From assembly GCA_016868855.1 (NCBI GenBank), contig VGFP01000002.1, forward strand, positions 223,210-287,209: a DNA stretch of 64,000 nucleotides. Direction: 5' to 3'. The stretch comes from Bacteroidota bacterium. GTDB taxonomy: Bacteria > Bacteroidota > Bacteroidia > Chitinophagales > Chitinophagaceae. The translations under genes were made by a program, and so were the position numbers. Below are positions 36,749 to 58,415 of this stretch, in pieces; within the stretch, counting starts at the first letter, position 1, and each line of letters opens with the position of its first letter. The notes under the pieces were generated by a model. The model did not search any database. It had not been told where the DNA came from and saw only the letters and a list, made by a program, of their open reading frames with translations.

Positions 36749-37496
36749 AAAAATAATGATCACTGGTGCAAGTTCCGGATTTGGTAAGGCCATGGCACAT
36801 CGCTTTGCAAAGGAGGGATGGAGCATTGTCATTACCGGAAGGAGAAAGAAAATCTTGCTTGAATTGGCTGAAGAACTCACTGCTCAGTATGGCGCAGAGG
36901 TGCTTGTGAAAGTTTTTGATGTACAGCAGCGCAAAGAAGTTTTTGATGTACTTGCAAACGACGAAAAACTTGGGGATGTTGATGTGGTTGTAAACAACGC
37001 TGGACTCGCCCTTGGCCGAGATTATTTTGATGAAGCCAACTTAGATGATTGGGAAACAATGATCGATACAAACTTGAAGGGGTTGTTGTATGTGTCCAAG
37101 GCAATGCTCCCTTATTTGATCAAACGAGGCAAAGGCCATATTATCAATATTGGATCAACAGCTGGAAAAGAAGTATATGAAAAGGGAAATGTGTATTGTG
37201 CTACAAAAACATCAGTTGATGCGATCAGTCAGGCAATGCGAATCGACATGCTTCGTCACCAAATAAAAGTAACTGCCATTCACCCTGGTGCGGCTGAAAC
37301 GGAATTTTCAATCGTACGATTCAAAGGTGATGCATCTATGGCAAAGACAGTTTATGAAGGGTACCAGCCATTGAAAGCTGAAGATGTTGCAGACACAGCT
37401 TTTTATTGTGCAAACTTGCCTGAACACGTTTGTATCAACAGTGTCGTTATGACGTGTACATCCCAGGCCAATTCATTTTATTTACTGCGCAAGTGA
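36741..37496 (+). CDS. SDR family oxidoreductase (YdfG-like)
   Basis: TGASSGFG, NNAGLALG, YCATK, PGAAETEFS. Confidence 0.92.
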   Translation: MRKKIMITGASSGFGKAMAHRFAKEGWSIVITGRRKKILLELAEELTAQYGAEVLVKVFDVQQRKEVFDVLANDEKLGDVDVVVNNAGLALGRDYFDEANLDDWETMIDTNLKGLLYVSKAMLPYLIKRGKGHIINIGSTAGKEVYEKGNVYCATKTSVDAISQAMRIDMLRHQIKVTAIHPGAAETEFSIVRFKGDASMAKTVYEGYQPLKAEDVADTAFYCANLPEHVCINSVVMTCTSQANSFYLLRK

Positions 37497-40400
37497 TATT
37501 CTTACCTGAAGTCCTCCTCTGGTATTCACAGAAGGTGCTGAATTTGAAATATAAGGACTGACCCTTCTTTGGTCAAAATACAATTGAAGATTGATTCTGT
37601 TGTTCAATACATAATCAATGGTGGGACGAATGCTGATTACTTTTTGTCCGCCTGTTGCATAAGCATTGTCTTGATCTAGCCTTGAATTTGAATTGATATC
37701 ATCCCGTATGCTGAAGTCCAATGCAAATGTGATATCACTGCCGGAGGACGATCCGGGTTGTGCCTGACTTTGTTCTTTGTTTCCAAAGTTTAGGTTGAAA
37801 GGTAAATTGACGCCTCTTTTCCTCCACCTCATTCCAAATGTGATCTCGGTTGAGTGTACTTCACTCAATTGAAAATCTGCCAAACTCAAACTCAATTGTC
37901 TGGATTTCTTATATTCAAATCTGCCTGACAGTTGGCTGGGTGTGCTGAAATCTATTCCAATCAATGGTGCAAACTGTTCAGATATCAAGAGGTTGGGAAA
38001 AAGAAAATAGGGTATGAAATTTCCAGTAATGGTATCTACGAATGATGGGAATCCATACAGCAGCGTATCTTGGAAAAGCAAAGCTGAATTGAAGCTGTTC
38101 ATGCTCAATGTTGAATTATATGCATGGCTCAGTGTAAAGTTGCTCAGTATGTTTTCAATTCCAGGAATTTTACTCAATCCATTGTAGGTAATCCTCCAGT
38201 TGGGTTTGGGCATGTATCCTTTGAAAGGATTGGTCTTTACCGATCCGGTTTCTCCGGTATTCAGCAGGGAAATATTTTTTGGATCCTGTTTTGTGTATGC
38301 CGCAATAAAAGATGGAACAAGTACATCTTGGGCATACCTGCCATAACCTTTGTAATAGCCATCAGAACCCTGTGTTTTGCTGTACGGATTGCTTTCACCC
38401 AAACGCTTGGATAAAACTGCTCTGTTCTCTTCAAATGTTTTGAACGTTCCACTAATAGCGTTGGGATCAAATTTCCCAAAAAGTGTCTGAAACGAGATAT
38501 AGCTGATGCTGAAGCCCCCGCCGGCATATGGATTGAGTGCGGAGAATTGTCCGGTATTGGCAGTGTCTTTGAAAAGGGTTGAGTAATTTTTATTGAGGGT
38601 CCTGTCAATATTTACATCAATCAGAAAATCTTTGAATGGCTCAACTTGTGCAGTCATGTTGAATTTCTGATCGTAGTTCTGCAAAAACAAATTATTGAGC
38701 ATCGGATCGCTGGTGATCAAACCCTTTTTGGCAACAGATTGAAGCCATGCTTGATTCGGTTGTTTTCCTGCAATGAAGTCTATTCCAGGTGAAAGGCTTT
38801 TCCAGTTTTGTCCCAATGCCCTTGTGCTGTCTGTATATCCTGGCAGGAAGGTGGTCCCCCCTTCGTTGTAAGAAGCTCCCACTCTTTTGAGTGCAGTAAT
38901 GATGCGCAGGATTGTTTTTTCTGCACCTGACAGTGCAATGTCTTTTTTCTCTTTTACCTCTTTTTCTTTCTTTTCTTTCTTTTCTTTCTCCTCAATGATA
39001 TTTCCATCTTTGTCCTTCTTTTCTTTTTTCATTTTAACTGAAGCTGCCTTGGGTTGTTTAGGAGCAGGTGCAGCACCACTTCCATCAATGGCTCGCAAGA
39101 ATCTTACTTTGTTGTAGAGTTGTGTGAAGTTCAATTCTGCTGTAGCACCAGCCTGGTTGCTGTTTTGTAATGTATTTCCCAGGCTCACGGCAAGTCTGGA
39201 GGCACCAACCCAATTATAGGTTGTACGGTATGCTAGGTTCAGACTTGTCCAGTCAAGCAATGGAAAACTGTTGAGTGGTACATTATAAGTGAGATCTGCA
39301 TTGTGGCTGTAAAGCGTATTCCTTCCTCCTTTGAGAAAATTTCTGAGCAATGAATCTTGTTTTGCTTTTGTATCAATTCTTCCGAAAGGTTCATCTACCC
39401 GCGAATTATTGGTTGCCCTGAAATCAAAGTTGAGTGATTTCGTCAGGTCCCATCTCAAATTATAATTCCTGTCAACGATAAAGTATTTATCATAGGTTTC
39501 TGGAATTTTAAATTTCCCTCCACCAACATTGCGCGGACGAATGGCGCCAAACTGCCTTCTCGTATCCAACCTGAATCCAATGAGAGAAGGCATCAGATTG
39601 AAGTTTACATTTTTAATGAAGTCGACCCATTTGCTTTGGATAGGAATGAGTTTTTTCAAAGGCTCAATGTATTTAGCCTGTCTATTGAAGTTATATCCAA
39701 TGCCACCCTGTGTTTTAGCAATTTCGTTGTTCTCTGTCAGTGGATTGTGTTGCCTGGTTTGAGTGAGGGAATAACTGAAATCAAAATTGGAAAGACTCCA
39801 AAGCCTGATTTTTTTATCCTGTCTTTGTGCAAAACGGACATTCGTGAAGTTGATGGTTTTGATTCCAGTATAGTCAACCGCATCGCCATTGATAGAGTCT
39901 CTTTTGTCTCTGTAGAGGGATAATTTATCTCTCAATAAAATATCACGGTCATATGGATCAAACTGAGGCGAGCTCATTGTCTCAGAGAGATTGAGGAAGA
40001 AAGGTATTTCCAGGCCAATTTGTTTGGGAAGCAGTTTTCCCAATTGGAGATTTGCTGACAGATCATACTGTTTGAGATCGTTTCTGTAACGTTCATTTAC
40101 ACGTTGTTCAAGCTGACCGAAACCTACCGTATGCATGTTTGCTGAAACGGAAACCGTTCCCAGGTCTGCTAGCTGTATATTCATTTGCCCCACTGCCGCC
40201 CAGGCACTGTTTTCATTGATGCCAGAAAGCCTGAGCTCGTTGATCCATACTTCCGCATTGATCCGCCTTCCGCCGGATGCATTTTTCGGGTTTTCAACCC
40301 CTGCCAGAATGCCCCGTATCTCTGCAAGATTGGGATTTCCATACACAGAAAATATTTTTCCGTTTACGCTCTTTCTATAAATAGCGGTGGGATTGTTTGT

Positions 40401-43400
40401 TTTGAGATTGCGTTCGTTTTTAAGATCAATCAGCGTTTGCAGATCAAAGCTCAATTCATTCTCAATGGGCCAAATAACATTTTCATCCGAGCTTCCAAAA
40501 GGAGTTGTTTTCAGCGGGTACTTGATTTCATAATAATGGTTGATGTAATCTGTTCCCAATCTTACAACGGCATACAATTCTCCATCATTGATTCTTGCAT
40601 ATTGCTTCAGGCTCTCGGCATGATAAAACATAGAGAGCGTTTTATATTGTCTTAAATCGTGGTTGAATCCTTTGAAAACAGCTCTTCCTCTTCCTTCTTC
40701 CAAATTTAATACCGTCATGCTCAGGGCCTGTTCATTTTGTAAAATATTGATTCCACCATTGCTCAGTGTTTGCACTCTTTCAATTCCAGGTGGAGTGCGG
40801 TAGGGAATAGGATCTCTTTTGTCGTTTTCTTCAATGTTTACTGCTGTGACGTTGAAAAATGTATTTTCATTTGATTTACTCAATGGAATATAAGTGCCTG
40901 ATGTGTCTAATTCATAGGCAAAACTTCTCCAGTTGTTTCTGACCAGCTCAAGTTTTGCAAATCGCATCACTACTGAATCTTCAAAGTCAGTCAGGAACAT
41001 CCTGATGAAACGAATGGATTTAAAATCTGGTATTTCACCAACCTTGCTGTTATATGCATTGATGGGCACCCTGAACTGATACCAAATCTGATCCTGTTTT
41101 GATCCGTCTGAAAGTGTGACGTTGACAACTTTTTTGTCGGCAATAAAATTCCTGCCAACCTGCATAAGTGGATCTCCAGAGGGTTTGAAATCTATTCTAT
41201 ATTGAAAATATTCTTCCGCCTCATTCAAAGTATTGTCCCTGTTCAGGTCCTCTCCATCTGGATACAATGTAAAGGCAGAGGCGAATGCATCTCCTGCTCT
41301 GGCTACGGGTGAATTACCTTGTGGATTGTTGAAATTTTTATATCGCTTTAAAATGCCTGCATTCTCCTGGTCAAAGCTTGCATCCCTATAATATTTGAAA
41401 TTATCAGAGGAGGGATCTGCATTGGCTTGTTTGTAGGCATCTGATCCAACGCCAAGTCTGGATGCCAAATCATTTAAATAATCTTTTCTTTTTGCAATTT
41501 CAGCAGAATCACTCAGTCCATCAAGACCCACATCTTGAAAAGCACGATCATTGGGTTCATTGCTGAAGCCTGTTGTGATCTGAGTAGGATTCAGCGGCAC
41601 CCTTCCCCAATTGGATGTTGCAACGCTGGATGGAATAGTAGGGGTAGGTAATCCGTTTTCATAAAATCTTCTGGAGTCCTTGAGAATGTCTTCTGAAATA
41701 TTTCCAAGGTTGATGTACATCGATCCACCTGCCTTGTTGGTGTTTTTGATAAAAGGATCCAATACCCAAAAATCTATGAACTCAATATTTGCGGTTTCAA
41801 AATCTGTTTGATCAATGCCCCGCATGATGCCCCCCCAACGCTGTTTCGGATTTCTCAGTGCACCAGTGCTTTCAATATTTGTTGCGTCGTAGTTATAAGG
41901 ACCTCTTTCTTTGGGATAGTATGCCAGGTCAAATGTTACAAGCTGACTTTGACCGAAGTCAGGTGTTCTTCTTGGAAAGATTTCCTGTTGACCAACACTT
42001 CTCACCCTTGGATCTGAAAGTTGTTCAACATCATTTCGAAGTGGATTGCTCAAATTTCTTTTTTCCTGTAAAATCGGTTCAATGTTATACCAGGCAAGTT
42101 TTGCTCTGTTCTTTCCGTAATCAATGTTGTCAAACGAAGTGGCTTCCGGAAACATGGTATTGCCAAAGCGGTCTTTCGCACCTGCGGGTGTAGAGGCCAA
42201 AGTCCATCCAATGATGGGGAATCTCAAATCAATACTTGATTTTGTTCCTTCGAAATCATCCAAATAAACCAATCCTTTTCCACCTTTCCCAATTTGAGGT
42301 GCGTGTCCAGGTTTCAATTGTGCAACCTCAGCAGAAGCACTGATGCTGGAGGAACCAGATGCTTCGTAGAAAGGCAACTTACTCAGCCACTTGCTCAATC
42401 TTGGGACCTCACTGTTGTATGACATATCGAGTCCAGCCATGCTGTTTCTGATGGGATCAGAACCATATTCCATTTTTGTGAAAAAAGGACGTTCTCCCAA
42501 TCTGACCATATTGCCACCAATTGAAAATTTATCACTGAAAAGATAGTCCCATCGTATACCTGTATAAGTTCTTTGTTGAACCCCAAAAGTTGCATTGTTT
42601 TCAAACTGCACATTTACCGGTACACCGGATTGTTTGATGGAGCTGTTGATTACACGCAGCGTTCCTGAGAGGTAATCAATGGTATAGTCCACATTCTCAA
42701 TTAATTTTTGTCCACCTGCTGTTACTGTTACAGAAGCTTGCGGAATATTGAAAGCGTTCAAGGAAATTTCACCTGAAGAGCCACCGGATGATTTTGAACT
42801 TCCCTTCATGATAAACCTATTCAGGTTTGCATAGGTTTGCGCAATGGCTTTGATTGTGTCGTAGAGGGGGTAAAACAAATATTTTTCGCGCAGCGCAGGA
42901 TCTGCAAATGCAAAATCAAGGTCATGTCCAAACGGCTCCAAGACCGGAAACATCACACGACTTTGATAAGAGTTTACAGTAAATCCTTCTACATAATCAA
43001 ACACACCATCCGGTTGGGGATCATTCTGGTTGTTCAGTCTGTCAAGGTTCAACAATGTGATCAAAGGAACACCAGCCTGTTCTCCCTCTGTGATGTATCT
43101 TTTCTCCCCTCCGCCTGGCTCTTGGTACAATACATTGAATTGAAAATCCTGTCGTTCCAATTGACCCGCACCTACTGCGTATACATTCTTCATCATCAAA
43201 TCCCAAATGGGCAAGGATGTTCTTTGTGAAGTCGCTTTCAATAATTTTAGGAAAAGTATTTTTGAAACACCACTTGTAGAATCAACCGGCACATCCTGCG
43301 CAAACTCACCCACCTGGAAGACTTTTCCGTTGACGGTATACTGGAATGCAACACCCAACACTTCATCCGGTTGAAGGGTTACGTTCAGTGAGATGAATCC

Positions 43401-44729
43401 AAGCTGTCTGTTGAAATAATATTGTGATGAATCCAATTTTCTTGCGAAGGTTTTTTCAAAGTCCCTTATTGGTTGCAATCCGATTGAATTCATGTAATTG
43501 ACCACCTGTGCTGGATTGCGGCTGTTGGGACTGCTGATGATTTTGCTGTACAGGTCGTTGGATTGGTTGGAAGGGTAGGTGGCACCCGGACGTGGATTGA
43601 TAATTGGTGGTTGTTGATAAGGTTTGTCTTCACCGAGATCCATCAGTCCCACTACATCCCTCGCATTGGTCGTAGCACCAAATCGGTTGGTTACCCAAAC
43701 TTCCAATCGCAGGAGTTGTACTTGTGAGTTGACGATGGGTAAGTTTTTCATTCCCTTGTTGAAATCTCTTCTGAAGTGTTGTGCCAGCAGAAAATGTCTG
43801 TTTTCTTCGTATTCATCTGCCTTGATTTCAAATGGCATGGATGAAGAGCCGCCCTTGAATGCAGTTGATTGTCTTTGTGAACGCTGACTGGCAAATACCG
43901 TGGTAAGCCATAGTTTACCAAATTGCATTTGAGTTTTGATGCCAAACAATTGTTGGGCACCTGGTATCAAGGTCCCTTTGGTAGCAAAAGAAGTATTGCC
44001 CACTTCAATTTTTTTGAAGACATCTTCGGCGCCACCTGCATAATCGAGTTTTAGCCTGTTTTCAAAATCAAATGTTGAGAGTGTATTGTAGCTGATCGGG
44101 AATTTCATTTTGTCGCCGATGTTTCCTAATACATTCAAATTAGCAGCCATGTCGAAATCTAATCCACCATTTCTTCTTGCTCTTTCAGGCAATGTCGGAT
44201 TTTTGATGTTTTGTCCCTGGTAGCCTGTTGTGATGTTGACCTCTCCCTGTGGACGAATATCAACCACGCCTGTTCCAAAAAGACGATTGAACAATTCCTC
44301 GCCCATGCTCAATCGGGGTTTAACCAGTTTTCTGTTCAGCAGACTGATGGTATTGGATCTTTTCTGAAAGTAATCTCTCTCAGCCTTTCTGGATTGGATA
44401 CGCATGTATTCTTCAAAAGTCAGAGACGTCGGTTTTCGGAAATACCTGGATCCAATTTTTTCGATGATATAATATTCTTTTGTTTTGTAGTCATATACCA
44501 GTGAATCTTTCAGGTTAACAGGATCTTTGAGGTCGAATGGATTTTTTTTTGAAAGAGAAATTTTATCACTTCTTCTGTCCTGCAATGGATACATCAATGA
44601 ATCGTTGAAAGGAAGTGTATCTCGGGTTCTTTCTTGACCCAATGGCAAGACAATAGGATGCGCATGCACAATTGTTGCACACATCAGTAGAACCACAAGG
44701 GATGTTATCTTGTAAGATAACTTTTTCAA
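37482..44729 (-). CDS. sprA: T9SS outer-membrane translocon SprA/Sov
   Basis: 2415 aa with signal peptide; FGTGVVDIRPQG, WDLMMKNVY, YLDDFEG, RAKLAWYNI, IPDFKSIRFIRMFL, WINELRL; directly downstream of ruvA. Confidence 0.95.
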   Translation of the reverse strand: MKKLSYKITSLVVLLMCATIVHAHPIVLPLGQERTRDTLPFNDSLMYPLQDRRSDKISLSKKNPFDLKDPVNLKDSLVYDYKTKEYYIIEKIGSRYFRKPTSLTFEEYMRIQSRKAERDYFQKRSNTISLLNRKLVKPRLSMGEELFNRLFGTGVVDIRPQGEVNITTGYQGQNIKNPTLPERARRNGGLDFDMAANLNVLGNIGDKMKFPISYNTLSTFDFENRLKLDYAGGAEDVFKKIEVGNTSFATKGTLIPGAQQLFGIKTQMQFGKLWLTTVFASQRSQRQSTAFKGGSSSMPFEIKADEYEENRHFLLAQHFRRDFNKGMKNLPIVNSQVQLLRLEVWVTNRFGATTNARDVVGLMDLGEDKPYQQPPIINPRPGATYPSNQSNDLYSKIISSPNSRNPAQVVNYMNSIGLQPIRDFEKTFARKLDSSQYYFNRQLGFISLNVTLQPDEVLGVAFQYTVNGKVFQVGEFAQDVPVDSTSGVSKILFLKLLKATSQRTSLPIWDLMMKNVYAVGAGQLERQDFQFNVLYQEPGGGEKRYITEGEQAGVPLITLLNLDRLNNQNDPQPDGVFDYVEGFTVNSYQSRVMFPVLEPFGHDLDFAFADPALREKYLFYPLYDTIKAIAQTYANLNRFIMKGSSKSSGGSSGEISLNAFNIPQASVTVTAGGQKLIENVDYTIDYLSGTLRVINSSIKQSGVPVNVQFENNATFGVQQRTYTGIRWDYLFSDKFSIGGNMVRLGERPFFTKMEYGSDPIRNSMAGLDMSYNSEVPRLSKWLSKLPFYEASGSSSISASAEVAQLKPGHAPQIGKGGKGLVYLDDFEGTKSSIDLRFPIIGWTLASTPAGAKDRFGNTMFPEATSFDNIDYGKNRAKLAWYNIEPILQEKRNLSNPLRNDVEQLSDPRVRSVGQQEIFPRRTPDFGQSQLVTFDLAYYPKERGPYNYDATNIESTGALRNPKQRWGGIMRGIDQTDFETANIEFIDFWVLDPFIKNTNKAGGSMYINLGNISEDILKDSRRFYENGLPTPTIPSSVATSNWGRVPLNPTQITTGFSNEPNDRAFQDVGLDGLSDSAEIAKRKDYLNDLASRLGVGSDAYKQANADPSSDNFKYYRDASFDQENAGILKRYKNFNNPQGNSPVARAGDAFASAFTLYPDGEDLNRDNTLNEAEEYFQYRIDFKPSGDPLMQVGRNFIADKKVVNVTLSDGSKQDQIWYQFRVPINAYNSKVGEIPDFKSIRFIRMFLTDFEDSVVMRFAKLELVRNNWRSFAYELDTSGTYIPLSKSNENTFFNVTAVNIEENDKRDPIPYRTPPGIERVQTLSNGGINILQNEQALSMTVLNLEEGRGRAVFKGFNHDLRQYKTLSMFYHAESLKQYARINDGELYAVVRLGTDYINHYYEIKYPLKTTPFGSSDENVIWPIENELSFDLQTLIDLKNERNLKTNNPTAIYRKSVNGKIFSVYGNPNLAEIRGILAGVENPKNASGGRRINAEVWINELRLSGINENSAWAAVGQMNIQLADLGTVSVSANMHTVGFGQLEQRVNERYRNDLKQYDLSANLQLGKLLPKQIGLEIPFFLNLSETMSSPQFDPYDRDILLRDKLSLYRDKRDSINGDAVDYTGIKTINFTNVRFAQRQDKKIRLWSLSNFDFSYSLTQTRQHNPLTENNEIAKTQGGIGYNFNRQAKYIEPLKKLIPIQSKWVDFIKNVNFNLMPSLIGFRLDTRRQFGAIRPRNVGGGKFKIPETYDKYFIVDRNYNLRWDLTKSLNFDFRATNNSRVDEPFGRIDTKAKQDSLLRNFLKGGRNTLYSHNADLTYNVPLNSFPLLDWTSLNLAYRTTYNWVGASRLAVSLGNTLQNSNQAGATAELNFTQLYNKVRFLRAIDGSGAAPAPKQPKAASVKMKKEKKDKDGNIIEEKEKKEKKEKEVKEKKDIALSGAEKTILRIITALKRVGASYNEGGTTFLPGYTDSTRALGQNWKSLSPGIDFIAGKQPNQAWLQSVAKKGLITSDPMLNNLFLQNYDQKFNMTAQVEPFKDFLIDVNIDRTLNKNYSTLFKDTANTGQFSALNPYAGGGFSISYISFQTLFGKFDPNAISGTFKTFEENRAVLSKRLGESNPYSKTQGSDGYYKGYGRYAQDVLVPSFIAAYTKQDPKNISLLNTGETGSVKTNPFKGYMPKPNWRITYNGLSKIPGIENILSNFTLSHAYNSTLSMNSFNSALLFQDTLLYGFPSFVDTITGNFIPYFLFPNLLISEQFAPLIGIDFSTPSQLSGRFEYKKSRQLSLSLADFQLSEVHSTEITFGMRWRKRGVNLPFNLNFGNKEQSQAQPGSSSGSDITFALDFSIRDDINSNSRLDQDNAYATGGQKVISIRPTIDYVLNNRINLQLYFDQRRVSPYISNSAPSVNTRGGLQVRISLAQ

Positions 44730-50983: not shown

Positions 50984-51931
50984 TTATTTTTTGTTTTTCT
51001 TTCTCAGTTTTGAAAACCTTCCATCAAAACTGCATCTCACTGATCGGTGATTTCCGCATGCTTCCAATTCTTTTACCTGTAATCCGCTGCTGCTGAATGT
51101 AAATTCAAGCACACAATGATCGTCTGCCTTGTTGTATTGATAAACTTTTGGCTTTACCTGTGTGATATCTCCTCTCAGGCTTCCTGTACAGGATTTCCCG
51201 TTTTTATCTACATTGATGAAAAACAAGAGCTTCCCGTTTTTGCCTCCATCTCTAATAGCAATAAAATTTTTCTTATCCTGCGCATAATTACCACTCAATG
51301 GTTGCGTTATTGGAAGTGTGTCAATGGGATTGTATACTTCTTTCTCTATGACAGGTTCGTTGCTCTCCGTTAGAATCAAAGTAAATACTCCTTCAGTATT
51401 GTAAACATAAACACTCTTGTTGTAATAGGCCTTGCCATTTCCGATACTGCTATTTTTCAGTTTGGTAATGGTAAGCCTTCTGTCCAGACTTCCGTCGTAT
51501 GAAACAGTGGGGTTGAAACTTTTTTCACTCAGCAGCATGCCAGTTTTGAAAACATCTTCTTTGTCAAAACAAAGTACGTAAGCGCATCTTTTTTCTTTTT
51601 TTTGTGCGGTCAAGAACAAATAAATTTCACCTGTCTCTTCAGCTGCATATCTTCCTTTACGGAAAAATTTTACATCTTTTGTTTTTCCCAATTCATTTTT
51701 AAAAACACTGTCAGGTATGAATTTTGAAACGACAGATGCTTTGATGAAATTGCTGTCGAATTCTTTTTTTTCGAAATAATCCTGTTTGAATTGAACGGGC
51801 AATTCTACAGTCTTGAAGGCTTTGATGAAATCCCCCGCAACGATTTCTTCATCCACATTGATGTCTTTTTCTTGCTGGTTACAGGAGATCATGGAGGTGA
51901 GCAGCGCCAGAAAGATGAAATAATTTCTCAT
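50984..51931 (-). CDS. hypothetical lipoprotein
   Basis: Start moved to MRNYFIFLALLTSMISC (lipobox Cys17), followed by acidic NQQEKDINVDEE; TACATTTG at 51946-51953. Confidence 0.75.
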   Translation of the reverse strand: MRNYFIFLALLTSMISCNQQEKDINVDEEIVAGDFIKAFKTVELPVQFKQDYFEKKEFDSNFIKASVVSKFIPDSVFKNELGKTKDVKFFRKGRYAAEETGEIYLFLTAQKKEKRCAYVLCFDKEDVFKTGMLLSEKSFNPTVSYDGSLDRRLTITKLKNSSIGNGKAYYNKSVYVYNTEGVFTLILTESNEPVIEKEVYNPIDTLPITQPLSGNYAQDKKNFIAIRDGGKNGKLLFFINVDKNGKSCTGSLRGDITQVKPKVYQYNKADDHCVLEFTFSSSGLQVKELEACGNHRSVRCSFDGRFSKLRKKNKK

Positions 51932-52081: not shown

Positions 52082-53743
52082 ATGTCCAACTTCAGGAACT
52101 ATTCTTTGCCTTACTCGATTGACTCCAGATTTTCCAAAAAAGTTGCTTATTTCTCCATGGAATTTGCCATACACCAACCACTTAAAATATACAGTGGCGG
52201 TCTCGGTTTTTTATCTGGTTCACACCTGAGAAGTGCGTATGAATTGCGTCAAAATTTAATTGGCGTTGGAATTTTGTGGAAGTACGGATATTATGATCAA
52301 GCAAGAAATCAGGATCAAACCTTACAGGTACAGTGGAACGAGAAAATTTATAATTTCTTTGAAGATACTGGCATCAAGTTTCAAGTTAAGATCCATAATG
52401 CTCCAGTTTGGGTAAAAGCTTTCTATCTGAATCCTGAAACGTTCAAGTCAGCTCCTTTGTTTTTGTTGAGTACTGACCTGCCAGAAAATGATTATGTTTC
52501 TCAGACCATCACACACCGTTTGTACGATGCCAATGTTGCGACAAAAGTTGCACAATTTATTCTGCTAGGAGTAGGTGGCGCAAAATTGATTGATGAATTG
52601 GGTTACAAGCCCGACGTGTATCACCTGAACGAAGCACATGCCATTTCTTCTGCATTTTATTTGTTGAACAAAAATGGTGGTGATCTTGATGCACTCAAAC
52701 GTCAGTTGGTTTTTACCACACATACACCTGAGGAAGCAGGAAATGAAAAACATGATATTTATCTATGCGAAAAAATGTCTTATTTCTGTGGCATGCCGTT
52801 GGCCAAAGTAAGAGAGTTAACGGGAACGGAAGATGATCAGTTTAATCATTCCCTTGCCGCATTGAGATTTGCACGATTGTCCAATGCTGTTTCTGAATTG
52901 CACGGACATGTTAGTAGAAAAATGTGGGGTAAACACGATGGCGTTTGTCCGATCATCCACATCACCAATTCCCAGAATTGGAGATATTGGGCAGACAAGC
53001 AATTGTACTTTGCCATGGATGAACAGAACGATGAAAAGTTTATCGATCGTAAAAGATATCTCAAAAAAAGAGCATTTGATTTGGTGGCTGATCAAACAGG
53101 CAAGTTGCTTGATCAGGATGTTTTTACCATTGTTTGGGCAAGAAGATTTGCGGGATATAAACGTGCCGATTTGCTGACACGCGACAGAGAACGATTTGAT
53201 GCCATGCTGGCCAATGCAAAATATCCAGTTCAAATCATTTGGGCTGGAAAGCCCTATCCAGTTGATTATCCGGCCATCACTGAGTTCAATCACCTGGTTC
53301 ATCTCAGCAAGAGTCATCAAAACATGGCAGTTTGCACTGGATACGAACTGGGACTGAGCAAGCGTCTCAAACAGGCAGCAGATATATGGTTGAACAATCC
53401 TCGGGTGCCTAGAGAAGCATCCGGAACGAGCGGCATGACAGCAGCCATGAATGGAGCTGTGAATTTCTCCACAAATGATGGATGGATTGTCGAGTTTGTC
53501 AATCATGGAAACAATGGATTTGTTGTTCCACCCAAAGATTATGAGAATATGCATGTGCATGACCAGGATGAATATGACCAGGATGAATTGTACAGAATAT
53601 TGCAGGAGGAAATTCTTCCTTTGTATTACGATGCGCCACATACCTGGCGACAAATTGTACAAAATGGAATGAAAGATGTCCGATTCAGGTTCGATTCCAA
53701 CCGCATGGCAACAGAATATTACGACCTGCTTTACAACGGATAG
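52082..53743 (+). CDS. glgP: short alpha-glucan phosphorylase (GT35); PLP-binding Lys replaced by Thr
   Basis: AYFSMEF, YSGGLG, HLNEAH, FTTHTP, ARRFAGYKR, DIWLNNP...EASGTSGMTAAMNG. Confidence 0.88.
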   Translation: MSNFRNYSLPYSIDSRFSKKVAYFSMEFAIHQPLKIYSGGLGFLSGSHLRSAYELRQNLIGVGILWKYGYYDQARNQDQTLQVQWNEKIYNFFEDTGIKFQVKIHNAPVWVKAFYLNPETFKSAPLFLLSTDLPENDYVSQTITHRLYDANVATKVAQFILLGVGGAKLIDELGYKPDVYHLNEAHAISSAFYLLNKNGGDLDALKRQLVFTTHTPEEAGNEKHDIYLCEKMSYFCGMPLAKVRELTGTEDDQFNHSLAALRFARLSNAVSELHGHVSRKMWGKHDGVCPIIHITNSQNWRYWADKQLYFAMDEQNDEKFIDRKRYLKKRAFDLVADQTGKLLDQDVFTIVWARRFAGYKRADLLTRDRERFDAMLANAKYPVQIIWAGKPYPVDYPAITEFNHLVHLSKSHQNMAVCTGYELGLSKRLKQAADIWLNNPRVPREASGTSGMTAAMNGAVNFSTNDGWIVEFVNHGNNGFVVPPKDYENMHVHDQDEYDQDELYRILQEEILPLYYDAPHTWRQIVQNGMKDVRFRFDSNRMATEYYDLLYNG

Positions 53744-56230: not shown

Positions 56231-57688
56231 ATGCACAATGCATTTGAAAAAATTACCGAAGCTGTAAGCAAGTGGGATGCTGACAAAGGAATTGAAATTG
56301 AGTCATTGAAACAGGCAGGCAGCAATCGCCAGTATTTTCGATTGAAAAAGGGGGATGAGTCATTTATTTTGACCTACAATCCAACAAATGTTCCTGAAAA
56401 CAATGCTTTTATTTCATTCACCAGGCATTTTTCTGATCATGCCTTGTTTGTTCCCCGTATTGAATACGTTGCCGGCAACCAGGAATTCTATATTCAATCA
56501 GACCTGGGGGATCTCTCTTTGTTTGATGTGATCAAAGTAGAAGGATTCTCTGAGCGGGTGAAGAATCTTTTCAAGCAAACCTGTCAGTCACTCGCACAAC
56601 TGCAAATTGTAGGGGGTAGAAATATTGATTACAACAACTGCATAGCAACTAGGTCGTTTGACAAACAGGCCATTTATTCAGATTTGCTTTATTTTCTCTA
56701 CTATTTTGTCCGAGCACTAGATCTGCCGTACGATAAAAATTTATTACTGAATGATTTTGAAATGCTCAGTAGTTATCTCATGCAGGAGGAACAACAATAC
56801 TTCATGCACCGTGATTGTCAGAGCCGAAATATCATGATCAAAGACAACAATGTTTGGTTTATTGACTACCAAGGAGGCATGCAAGGTGCATTGCAGTATG
56901 ACATTGCTTCTTTGTTATGGCAAGCCAGGGCCCAGATGCCATATGATTGGAGGGATGAACTGGTGAATTATTACTTTGAGCATGCGAATCAATTGCTTGA
57001 AGGCAGTTTGAAAAAAGAAGATTTTCTTTCCAACTATGATGGATTTGTGCTGATCCGGATGCTGCAAACATTGGGTGCGTATGGGTTCCGGGGATTGTTT
57101 GAGCGCAAACCTCATTTTATTGCTAGTATTCCATTTGCACTTAAGAGCCTGAAGTGGTTTTTAGAAAATAAAAAGTTGCCTATCAGATTGCCTGCATTGC
57201 AAAAAGTATTACAAGCCATTGTAGCGGATGAAATCCTTGAAAAGTTTGCAACCATCACTGCAGGTCCGGATTGCAAACTGACCATACACATCAACAGCTT
57301 TTCGTATAAAAAAGGGATTCCACAAGATGAATTTGGTAACGGAGGCGGGTATGTGTTTGATTGCAGGGGGATTTTAAATCCCGGACGTTTGGATGAATAC
57401 AAAACGCTCACCGGTAGAGACAAACCAGTTCAAGAGTTTTTGTTGCACAAAACTAATATGCCTTCTTTTCTGCAGCATGTTTTTGGCATCATAGATATTT
57501 CTGTGGAAGATTATATCAAAAGAAGTTTCGAGGGACTCACCATCAGTTTTGGTTGCACAGGCGGACAGCATCGAAGTGTGTTTGCAGCAGATCGACTCGC
57601 TGATCACTTGAAAGAAAAATACAAAGTACAAACCGTTGTTCGTCATATGGAGCAAGATGCTAAAAATTGGATCAATGAACCCTATTAA
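56231..57688 (+). CDS. AmgK-like APH-family phosphotransferase fused to a RapZ C-terminal domain
   Basis: AGSNRQYFR, DLG, HRDCQSRNIM, IDYQ, YDIASLL; from about 57278 SFSYKKGIP, FDCR...NP, LTGRD, GCTGGQHRSV. Confidence 0.85.
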   Translation: MHNAFEKITEAVSKWDADKGIEIESLKQAGSNRQYFRLKKGDESFILTYNPTNVPENNAFISFTRHFSDHALFVPRIEYVAGNQEFYIQSDLGDLSLFDVIKVEGFSERVKNLFKQTCQSLAQLQIVGGRNIDYNNCIATRSFDKQAIYSDLLYFLYYFVRALDLPYDKNLLLNDFEMLSSYLMQEEQQYFMHRDCQSRNIMIKDNNVWFIDYQGGMQGALQYDIASLLWQARAQMPYDWRDELVNYYFEHANQLLEGSLKKEDFLSNYDGFVLIRMLQTLGAYGFRGLFERKPHFIASIPFALKSLKWFLENKKLPIRLPALQKVLQAIVADEILEKFATITAGPDCKLTIHINSFSYKKGIPQDEFGNGGGYVFDCRGILNPGRLDEYKTLTGRDKPVQEFLLHKTNMPSFLQHVFGIIDISVEDYIKRSFEGLTISFGCTGGQHRSVFAADRLADHLKEKYKVQTVVRHMEQDAKNWINEPY

Positions 57689-58415
57689 TGAATGCAAGGC
57701 CATGCTATTTGCAGCTGGATTGGGCACAAGACTCAAACCTTTTACCGATCATCATCCAAAGGCACTTGCTCAAGTAAACAATAAAACACTCCTCCAAAGA
57801 AATCTTGAATACCTGCATTCGTTCGGCATCAATCATTTTGTTGTCAATGTGCACCATTTTGCTGACCAGGTCATTGCTGAATTGGATAAACTGGCATGTG
57901 AGCAATGGAGTGTTGATATTTCCCATGAAGTAGACGGACCCTTTGAAACAGGTGGTGGATTGGCATTTGCTGCCAGGCATTTTTCAGGAAGCGATCAGCC
58001 ATTTGTGGTCATGAATGTCGATATTCTCACGAACCTTGATCTGAATGGCATGTATGATTATCATCAAAAAATACATCCGCTCGTTACACTCGCGGTGACA
58101 GACCGGAAAAGTTCAAGACATTTTTTATTTGATGATGAGATGAAGTTGGTAGGATGGCGAAACAACAAAACAGGAGAGGAGAAATGGGTGAATGGATTGG
58201 TTGAAAACGTACAACCATTTGCTTTTTCAGGCATTCATATCATCGATCCCCGCATTTTTAGCCTCATGCCAATCGATGGAACTTTCTCAATCGTGGACAT
58301 TTATCTGCGCATAGCCAAGGATGAATTGGTCATAGCATATGACCATACTGGTGATCTGATGCTGGACGTGGGAAAGCCAGAAGCATTGCTGAAAGCGGAG
58401 GAAATGTTTTCTTGA
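57675..58415 (+). CDS. sugar-phosphate nucleotidyltransferase, MurU-like
   Basis: KAMLFAAGLGTRLKPFTDHHPKAL, ETGGGL, NVD, FSGIHI, DVGKPE; overlaps the kinase gene. Confidence 0.85.
   Translation: MNPINECKAMLFAAGLGTRLKPFTDHHPKALAQVNNKTLLQRNLEYLHSFGINHFVVNVHHFADQVIAELDKLACEQWSVDISHEVDGPFETGGGLAFAARHFSGSDQPFVVMNVDILTNLDLNGMYDYHQKIHPLVTLAVTDRKSSRHFLFDDEMKLVGWRNNKTGEEKWVNGLVENVQPFAFSGIHIIDPRIFSLMPIDGTFSIVDIYLRIAKDELVIAYDHTGDLMLDVGKPEALLKAEEMFS

What the first reader, a model, noticed from the sequence alone, without database searches (positions are those of the whole stretch)
53414..53455. Glucan phosphorylase lacking the PLP Schiff-base lysine (EASGTSGM-T-AAMNG)
Seen: codon ACA (Thr) at 53438-53440 in an otherwise intact ORF of about 553 aa. 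The GGLG loop, FTTHTP His and ARRFxxYKR phosphate-binding motif are retained. Established: GT35 glycogen/starch/maltodextrin phosphorylases bind PLP covalently through the Lys in EA[SC]GxxxMKxxxN, and the PLP phosphate is needed for catalysis. Typical members are about 800 aa. Inference: this compact form may bind PLP non-covalently, use another phosphate-bearing cofactor or a nucleotide sugar (GT-B synthase-like chemistry), or be a non-catalytic glucan binder. If the Thr is conserved across a clade, this would be a mechanistically distinct phosphorylase subfamily.
Basis: partly seen in the sequence, partly recalled or inferred. Interest (0 to 1): 0.72.

Follow-up and report, generated by a model that had tools for sequence, protein, structure and literature searches.

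The report
Lysine-less glycogen phosphorylase, Chitinophagaceae member
This intact gene encodes a short glycogen-phosphorylase-family protein with threonine where the vitamin-B6 cofactor is normally anchored; the change is real and conserved, but it marks an already published branch whose archaeal member was reported to work without the cofactor, so this is a further example that likely works the same way.

Summary
Observation confirmed: ACA (Thr453) at 53438-53440 in an intact 553-aa GT35/TIGR02094 ORF. It is no error: 120 of 120 listed homologues have Thr, all four Thr codons occur, dN/dS is 0.014-0.029, and contigs from other runs match across the codon. It is already in print. A 2024 preprint shows that the Methanococcus maripaludis enzyme (Lys-to-Thr, Phe26 in the pyridoxal pocket) is active without PLP. 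Nat Commun 2026 (PMC13324651) describes the ~550-aa Lys-less clade in Chitinophagia, Cytophagia and Flavobacteria. My tree places this protein's clade sister to Methanococcales (100/98); it is 43% identical to M. jannaschii MJ1631 and has the same Phe. It is the only GT35 gene found in a genome with glgA, glgC, a glgB-like gene and malQ, so it is likely the working glycogen phosphorylase. One point I did not find in the papers: Lys430 is Lys/Arg in 540 of 540 sequences lacking the canonical Lys and in 0 of 185 that keep it, and it is lost where a Patescibacteria subclade regains the canonical Lys (two events only). This scan has reported the same family on other genomes, one note including that lysine.

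The parts
52082..53743 (+). Short GT35 alpha-glucan phosphorylase gene, 553 aa (P0001), Lys-less GP1 clade
   Evidence: TIGR02094 430 bits, cut-off 191.7; PF00343; AF2 model pLDDT 95, TM 0.90 to 9l6i
53414..53455 (+). EASGTSGMTAAMNG motif; Thr453 (ACA, 53438-53440) at the position of the PLP Schiff-base lysine
53369..53371 (+). Lys430 (AAA) on predicted helix 423-432; reciprocal lysine of the Lys-less clade
   Evidence: K/R in 540 of 540 non-Lys453 rows, 0 of 185 Lys453 rows; lost with the reversal in a Ca. Giovannonibacteria subclade
52196..52210 (+). GGLGF loop; Phe43 corresponds to Phe26 of Methanococcales enzymes, modelled in the preprint as filling the pyridoxal pocket
   Evidence: alignment to MJ1631; preprint text; F or Y in 482 of 540 Lys-less rows, I or V in 176 of 185 Lys rows
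52712..52729 (+). FTTHTP with His214 (glucosyl-binding His; role recalled)
   Evidence: His in 538 of 540 Lys-less and 185 of 185 Lys rows
53141..53164 (+). RRFAGYKR: Arg354, Arg355, Tyr359, Lys360, the basic residues around the two phosphate sites (role from PMC11046441 passage and recall)
   Evidence: R355 538/540, K360 538/540, R or K354 539/540 in Lys-less rows
53339..53359 (+). G420-Y421-x4-S426, in register with GYNEKLS of the genome's own glycogen synthase
   Evidence: S426 in 526 of 540 Lys-less rows, A or G in 164 of 185 Lys rows

Best explanation
The protein belongs to the Lys-less clade of short GT35 phosphorylases, sister to the Methanococcales enzymes, and is likely the cell's working glycogen phosphorylase, likely releasing glucose-1-phosphate without PLP. 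Shown here: the substitution, its conservation, the clade, the intact GT-B fold model, retention of all glucosyl- and phosphate-binding residues, and that it is the only GT35 gene found in a genome with glycogen synthesis genes. Inferred from the M. maripaludis enzyme: no PLP is bound; Phe43 fills the pyridoxal pocket; a second, non-covalent phosphate (orthophosphate in the authors' model, possibly a sugar phosphate or polyphosphate in my reading of their activator data) sits in the old PLP-phosphate site, held by Arg354, Lys360 and the Thr449-Gly451 helix start, and acts as the proton shuttle to the substrate phosphate. Inferred by me: Lys430 reaches into the space left by the Lys-pyridoxal arm and stabilises this site, which is why the two lysines exclude each other.
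For: Conservation and selection: (dN/dS 0.014-0.029 in 5 of 6 close relatives; the sixth saturated). Catalytic residues kept. Fold: (best match S. copri phosphorylase, Z 34.5, rmsd 2.1 A over 536 residues). Kinship: 43% identity over 534 aa to M. jannaschii MJ1631; Bacteroidota short forms plus Methanococcales 100/98 in a 60-row LG+C20 tree built without columns 43, 430 and 453; a clade of Bacteroidota Lys-less and Bacteroidota long Lys forms rejected, p-AU 2e-9. Published activity without PLP in MmGP. Genome: one GT35 gene, glgA (80), glgC over cut-off (81), GH13 genes beside them (82), GH77 malQ (84). Reciprocal Lys.
Against: No Bacteroidota member has been assayed in anything I read. The M. 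maripaludis sequence itself was not in hand; named Methanocaldococcus, Methanothermococcus and Methanococcus aeolicus proteins stood in. The two-phosphate mechanism is a model in the preprint, not a measurement. No coordinates were available, so neither Phe43 filling the pocket nor Lys430 reaching it was measured. The reciprocal-Lys pattern rests on two events (sign test p 0.5), and dozens of other columns also differ between the clades. The genome is 87% complete, so a second phosphorylase could be missing. The gene is not beside glg genes in 0 of 103 loci tested for them (only 52 had full flanks).
Confidence: 0.8

Rival explanations
1. Lys430 is a relocated Schiff-base lysine (or PLP binds loosely), so the enzyme is PLP-assisted in the cell and the recombinant archaeal enzyme lost its cofactor during purification.
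For: Mutual exclusion of Lys430 and Lys453, including the reversal, is what a moved attachment point would give. MmGP was purified in 50 mM glycine pH 9.5 with imidazole, and PLP is not in the effector list that I read. The genome has pdxJ.
Against: MmGP was active at levels like other prokaryotic phosphorylases with no PLP by absorbance, fluorescence, cyanohydrin assay and mass spectrometry. All 7 Methanococcales rows of my alignment have Lys430. Two members have Arg there, which cannot form the usual aldimine. Phe/Tyr43 is modelled as blocking the ring pocket.
Confidence: 0.1
2. The protein uses a nucleotide or nucleotide sugar in the vacated pocket, with glycogen-synthase-like chemistry, alone or besides phosphorolysis.
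For: G420-Y421-x4-S426 is in register with GYNEKLS of the genome's GlgA and is typical of the Lys-less clade; this motif lines the adenine pocket of GT5 enzymes (recalled). E. coli glycogen synthase scores Z 32.2, level with long phosphorylases. ADP-glucose, UDP-glucose and ADP inhibit MmGP and phosphate relieves this.
Against: The GT5 loop KVGGLGD of the genome's GlgA is YSGGLGF here, so the Lys and Asp that bind the donor in synthases (roles recalled) are missing. Nucleotides inhibit rather than activate MmGP. The genome already has GlgA and GlgC. Best structural match is a phosphorylase.
Confidence: 0.05
3. A catalytically dead glucan-binding or regulatory pseudo-phosphorylase.
For: Loss of the canonical lysine; no glg genes beside it; dead-looking paralogues exist in the clade (P0123).
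Against: All other active-site residues are nearly invariant; only GT35 gene found in the genome; the archaeal sister enzyme is active.
Confidence: 0.04
4. Sequencing error or private mutation of a Lys codon.
For: ACA is one base from AAA.
Against:: no close relative has Lys; all four Thr codons and both Ser codon families occur.
Confidence: 0.01

Closest known systems
Methanococcus maripaludis glycogen phosphorylase MmGP (UniProt Q6LXX5; bioRxiv 10.1101/2024.09.29.615707; FEBS J 2025 version cited in PMC13324651, not held)
   Same: Lys-to-Thr in EASGTxMK, Phe in GGLGF, short chain, conserved phosphate sites; Methanococcales relatives are 43-46% identical over the full length and form the sister clade.
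   Different: Bacterial host, about 34 aa longer, never assayed; oligomeric state and regulation unknown. MmGP's own sequence was not compared.
GP1-clade VIII, Lys-less subclade (PMC13324651, Nat Commun 2026, section 'Phylogeny analysis of GPs')
   Same: About 550 aa; Lys replaced by Thr, Gly or Ala in Flavobacteria, Chitinophagia, Cytophagia, Melainabacteria, Akkermansia, with Archaea in the same subclade; a Lys-bearing short sister subclade. My tree has the same shape.
   Different: That section does not mention a second lysine, Ser variants or the Patescibacteria branch with its reversal.
TIGR02094 / GP1 PLP-lysine-bearing phosphorylases, e.g. Segatella copri GP (PDB 9l6i, 20yr)
   Same: Same fold (TM 0.90; Z 34.5) and active-site motifs; above the family cut-off.
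   Different: They keep the Lys, have I/V/M for Phe43, Asp for Ser47, NGVH for NSQN and V/T/I for Lys430; 9l6i is 852 aa.
GT5 glycogen synthase GlgA
   Same: GT-B fold (Z 32.2 to 2qzs); GY-x4-S and E-x2-G motifs in register.
   Different: About 18-24% identity; far below the TIGR02095 cut-off (47.5 against 328); donor-binding Lys and Asp of KxGGLGD absent.

Membership tests
GT35 / TIGR02094 alpha-glucan phosphorylase family | Profile score above the curated cut-off | tested here: met
   430.4 bits against 191.7; PF00343 56.7 against 27
GT35 / TIGR02094 alpha-glucan phosphorylase family | Phosphorylase GT-B fold | tested here: met
   Predicted model, pLDDT 95; top matches are phosphorylases
GT35 / TIGR02094 alpha-glucan phosphorylase family | GGLG loop, His, Asn, RR..YKR, Glu motifs | tested here: met
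Canonical PLP-dependent phosphorylases | Schiff-base Lys in EA[SC]GxxxxK | tested here: not met
   Thr453
Lys-less short GP1 clade (clade VIII subclade; MmGP type) | Thr/Ser/Gly/Ala at the Lys position, about 550 aa | tested here: met
Lys-less short GP1 clade (clade VIII subclade; MmGP type) | One clade with the Methanococcales enzymes | tested here: met
   100/98 support; rival grouping rejected, p-AU 2e-9. The published tree's sequences were not in hand.
Lys-less short GP1 clade (clade VIII subclade; MmGP type) | Bulky Phe at the MmGP F26 position | tested here: met
   Phe43 aligns with Phe26 of MJ1631; sequence only, pocket geometry not measured
Lys-less short GP1 clade (clade VIII subclade; MmGP type) | Phosphorolysis of glycogen with no PLP bound | not testable with these tools
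   Reported for MmGP only
Lys-less short GP1 clade (clade VIII subclade; MmGP type) | Monomer, as MmGP | not tested
   Two whole chains exceed the complex tool's size limit; no job sent
GT5 glycogen synthase | Profile score and KxGGLGD donor loop | tested here: not met
   47.5 bits against 328; YSGGLGF against KVGGLGD

The most novel reading that the evidence does not exclude
The Lys-less phosphorylases replaced the covalent cofactor by a built-in lysine plus an exchangeable phosphate: Lys430 takes the place of the Lys-pyridoxal arm, and a dissociable phosphate ester (fructose-6-phosphate, fructose-1,6-bisphosphate or polyphosphate, which activate MmGP 3- to 9-fold) serves as the acid-base cofactor, so that glycogen breakdown is switched by metabolite level at the active site itself. 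The switch is reversible in evolution: one Patescibacteria lineage went back to the canonical lysine and dropped Lys430, giving a natural pair for testing how PLP dependence is lost and gained.
Probability: 0.3. Interest if true: 0.55.

Novelty: new member of a known kind. Interest (0 to 1): 0.22.

Why it matters
The gene itself adds one more member to a published clade. The clade matters because PLP dependence was a textbook constant of glucan phosphorylases, and no bacterial member has been assayed in the papers I read. The reciprocal Lys430 and the natural reversal give a specific two-residue experiment on how the enzyme works without PLP, and a cofactor-free phosphorylase could be useful for glucose-1-phosphate and amylose biocatalysis.

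Tried and rejected
Error or private mutation: rejected. Independent loss of the Lys in Bacteroidota from their own long Lys forms: rejected by AU test. Glycogen operon context: no glgA, glgB, glgC or malQ match in 103 loci; def and ruvX neighbours only in the 6 closest; the divergent upstream hypothetical gene in 30 of 103. GT3 synthase PF05693 not found in the 87%-complete genome. Statistical support for Lys430/Lys453 co-change: only 2 independent pairs, both in the same direction, p 0.5. A homologue search from P0124 to reach archaea returned Bacteroidota names only; the Methanococcales proteins came from a metagenome motif scan. Pocket geometry: no coordinates are returned, and the Atlas holds no model. 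Literature for pyridoxal-ring contact residues (0 papers), for phosphate activation of pyridoxal-reconstituted phosphorylase (one off-topic paper, not read) and for the EX7E equivalence (no paper listed with the term) gave nothing usable, so those points are recalled. The FEBS J version of the MmGP paper is not held. Expression: the gene lies in contigs of RNA libraries, but no silent control stretch was laid and contigs cannot show transcription.

Full report
Observation. Window 53414-53455 encodes EASGTSGMTAAMNG, with ACA (Thr453) at 53438-53440, inside an intact ORF 52082-53743 (+) of 553 aa. It scores 430 bits on TIGR02094 (cut-off 191.7) and matches PF00343. Against the Segatella copri phosphorylase 9l6i the Thr stands opposite the Lys of EASGTSGEK. 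The AlphaFold2 model from a 50-row alignment has mean pLDDT 95, TM 0.90 to 9l6i and Z 34.5, rmsd 2.1 A to 20yr.

It is a fixed clade trait. The query and all 120 listed homologues (79-97% identity) have Thr and GGLGF. Among 145 ORFs taken by motif from 146 loci, 101 have Thr in all four codons, 3 have Ser in both codon families and 41 have Lys. dN/dS against close relatives is 0.014-0.029 in 5 of 6 pairs, the sixth saturated. Contigs from three RNA-library runs cover the codon with no listed difference there. Named relatives are Chitinophagaceae and Cytophagales such as Hymenobacter. In a class-wide sample, 24 places in 23 of 251 genomes (the window's own included) matched at over 50% identity; the 23 others were fetched and all have Thr or Ser.

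Prior art. I read parts 1-5 of 6 of bioRxiv 10.1101/2024.09.29.615707 (its supplements are closed). It reports that Methanococcales phosphorylases have Thr (sometimes Ser) for the Lys. The M. maripaludis enzyme is a monomer, makes glucose-1-phosphate from glycogen and has no PLP by absorbance, fluorescence, cyanohydrin assay and mass spectrometry. Its model has Phe26 in the pyridoxal pocket and room for two phosphates. F6P, FBP and polyphosphate activate; ADP-glucose, UDP-glucose, ADP, PPi and PEP inhibit. The text has no word beginning 'Bacteroid'. PMC13324651 (passages; section 14 whole; text search of 3 supplementary files) closes that gap: GP1-clade VIII, about 550 residues, has the Lys replaced by Thr, Gly or Ala in Flavobacteria, Chitinophagia, Cytophagia, Akkermansia and Gastranaerophilales, and the authors cite MmGP. 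Its figures and the FEBS J version of the MmGP paper were not seen and may hold more. Passages of PMC11046441 gave the canonical mechanism; passages of PMC8950772 and PMC12525153 added nothing on this clade.

Same clade as the assayed enzyme. A motif scan of metagenomes gave 519-aa proteins 43-46% identical to the query, whose clusters are named Methanocaldococcus, Methanothermococcus and Methanococcus aeolicus. M. jannaschii MJ1631 aligns at 43% over 534 residues, with Phe26 opposite Phe43 and Thr opposite Thr453. A careful tree of 60 rows (33 of the 93 rows left out for run time; columns 43, 430 and 453 removed) joins Bacteroidota short forms and Methanococcales at 100/98, then Vampirovibrionales, then a Patescibacteria-containing group, all apart from the Lys-bearing forms at 100/100. 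Forcing Bacteroidota Lys-less forms together with Bacteroidota long Lys forms is rejected (p-AU 2e-9). The root is not inferred, so I name no donor.

Genome context. The genome (1.43 Mb, 87% complete) shows one GT35 gene, a cluster with glgA, glgC and GH13 genes on another contig, a GH77 gene and pdxJ, so it can likely make PLP and still uses the Lys-less form. The gene sits among housekeeping genes (lysA, def) and no glg gene was found beside it in 103 loci.

The compensating lysine. Comparing 54 Lys-less with 37 Lys-bearing rows, position 430 is Lys in 54 of 54 and 0 of 37 (P0172 and one fragment set aside). Over 746 distinct sequences of 300 aa or more, 725 passed an anchor filter: 540 lack Lys453 and have Lys (538) or Arg (2) at 430; 185 have Lys453 and none has Lys or Arg at 430. 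Of the 21 dropped rows, 8 had letters at both places: 6 fit the pattern and 2 were misaligned. The set is dominated by Bacteroidota. Six sequences nested in the Patescibacteria group (P0172, P0448-P0452; two named Ca. Giovannonibacteria) have Lys453 again and Gln or Ser at 430. That is two events, both in the same direction, too few for a test (p 0.5). Lys430 lies on predicted helix 423-432, seven and four residues from Leu423 and Ser426, which match residues that line the pyridoxal ring in rabbit phosphorylase (recalled; my paper search found no source). That it reaches the pocket is inference. I did not find it mentioned in the two papers' texts that I read, nor a further paper in searches.

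Mechanism. Best reading (0.8): a working PLP-free glycogen phosphorylase like MmGP, with a second non-covalent phosphate as proton shuttle, Phe43 filling the ring pocket and Lys430 likely replacing the lost lysine arm. Rivals: Lys430 as a moved Schiff-base site with PLP lost in the archaeal preparation (0.1); synthase-like nucleotide use, suggested by GY-x4-S in register with the genome's GlgA but opposed by loss of the KxGGLGD residues (0.05); dead binder (0.04); error (0.01).

Verdict. Real, conserved, and already described at family level in 2024-2026. Earlier notes of this scan report the same family on at least five other genomes, one naming an invariant lysine that appears where the old one is lost (seen after my own analysis; unchecked notes, not support). 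New member of a known kind; interest 0.22.

Noticed in passing
P0172, P0448-P0452: A Ca. Giovannonibacteria (Patescibacteria) subclade nested in the Lys-less clade has the canonical Lys again, a two-residue gap just after it, and Gln or Ser in place of Lys430: an apparent reversal.
   Followed up: partly
P0123 and its cluster mate P0274: Bacteroidota member of the clade with a degenerate active site (ASGLG, FTTH changed to YTNS, RTFTSDRR, EATETSGIS): likely a non-catalytic paralogue.
   Followed up: no
L135 and L136 (G301); L123 and L133 (G474): G301 holds both a Thr form and a short Lys-bearing form; G474 holds two Lys-less paralogues (Ser and Thr).
   Followed up: no
window 56231-58415 (+): APH-family kinase fused to a RapZ C-terminal domain, followed by a MurU-like nucleotidyltransferase; both below the AmgK and MurU cut-offs. 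Looks like a cell-wall sugar recycling pair.
   Followed up: no
window about 50984-51931 (-): Divergent hypothetical lipoprotein-like gene upstream of the phosphorylase, matched in 30 of 103 related loci; not scanned against family libraries.
   Followed up: partly
G000 C1:197019-205002: A small (1.43 Mb assembled) lake-water Chitinophagaceae-like genome keeps a glgA-glgC-transporter-GH13-glgB-like cluster, apart from the phosphorylase (transporter and glgB labels are my reading of the translations).
   Followed up: partly
L137, L138, L139, L142: Lys-bearing phosphorylases of 1327-1409 aa in other Bacteroidota, apparently fusions; large forms are noted in PMC13324651.
   Followed up: no
window 37482-44729 (-): 2415-aa ORF resembling the gliding/secretion protein SprA (recalled, not scanned).
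   Followed up: no
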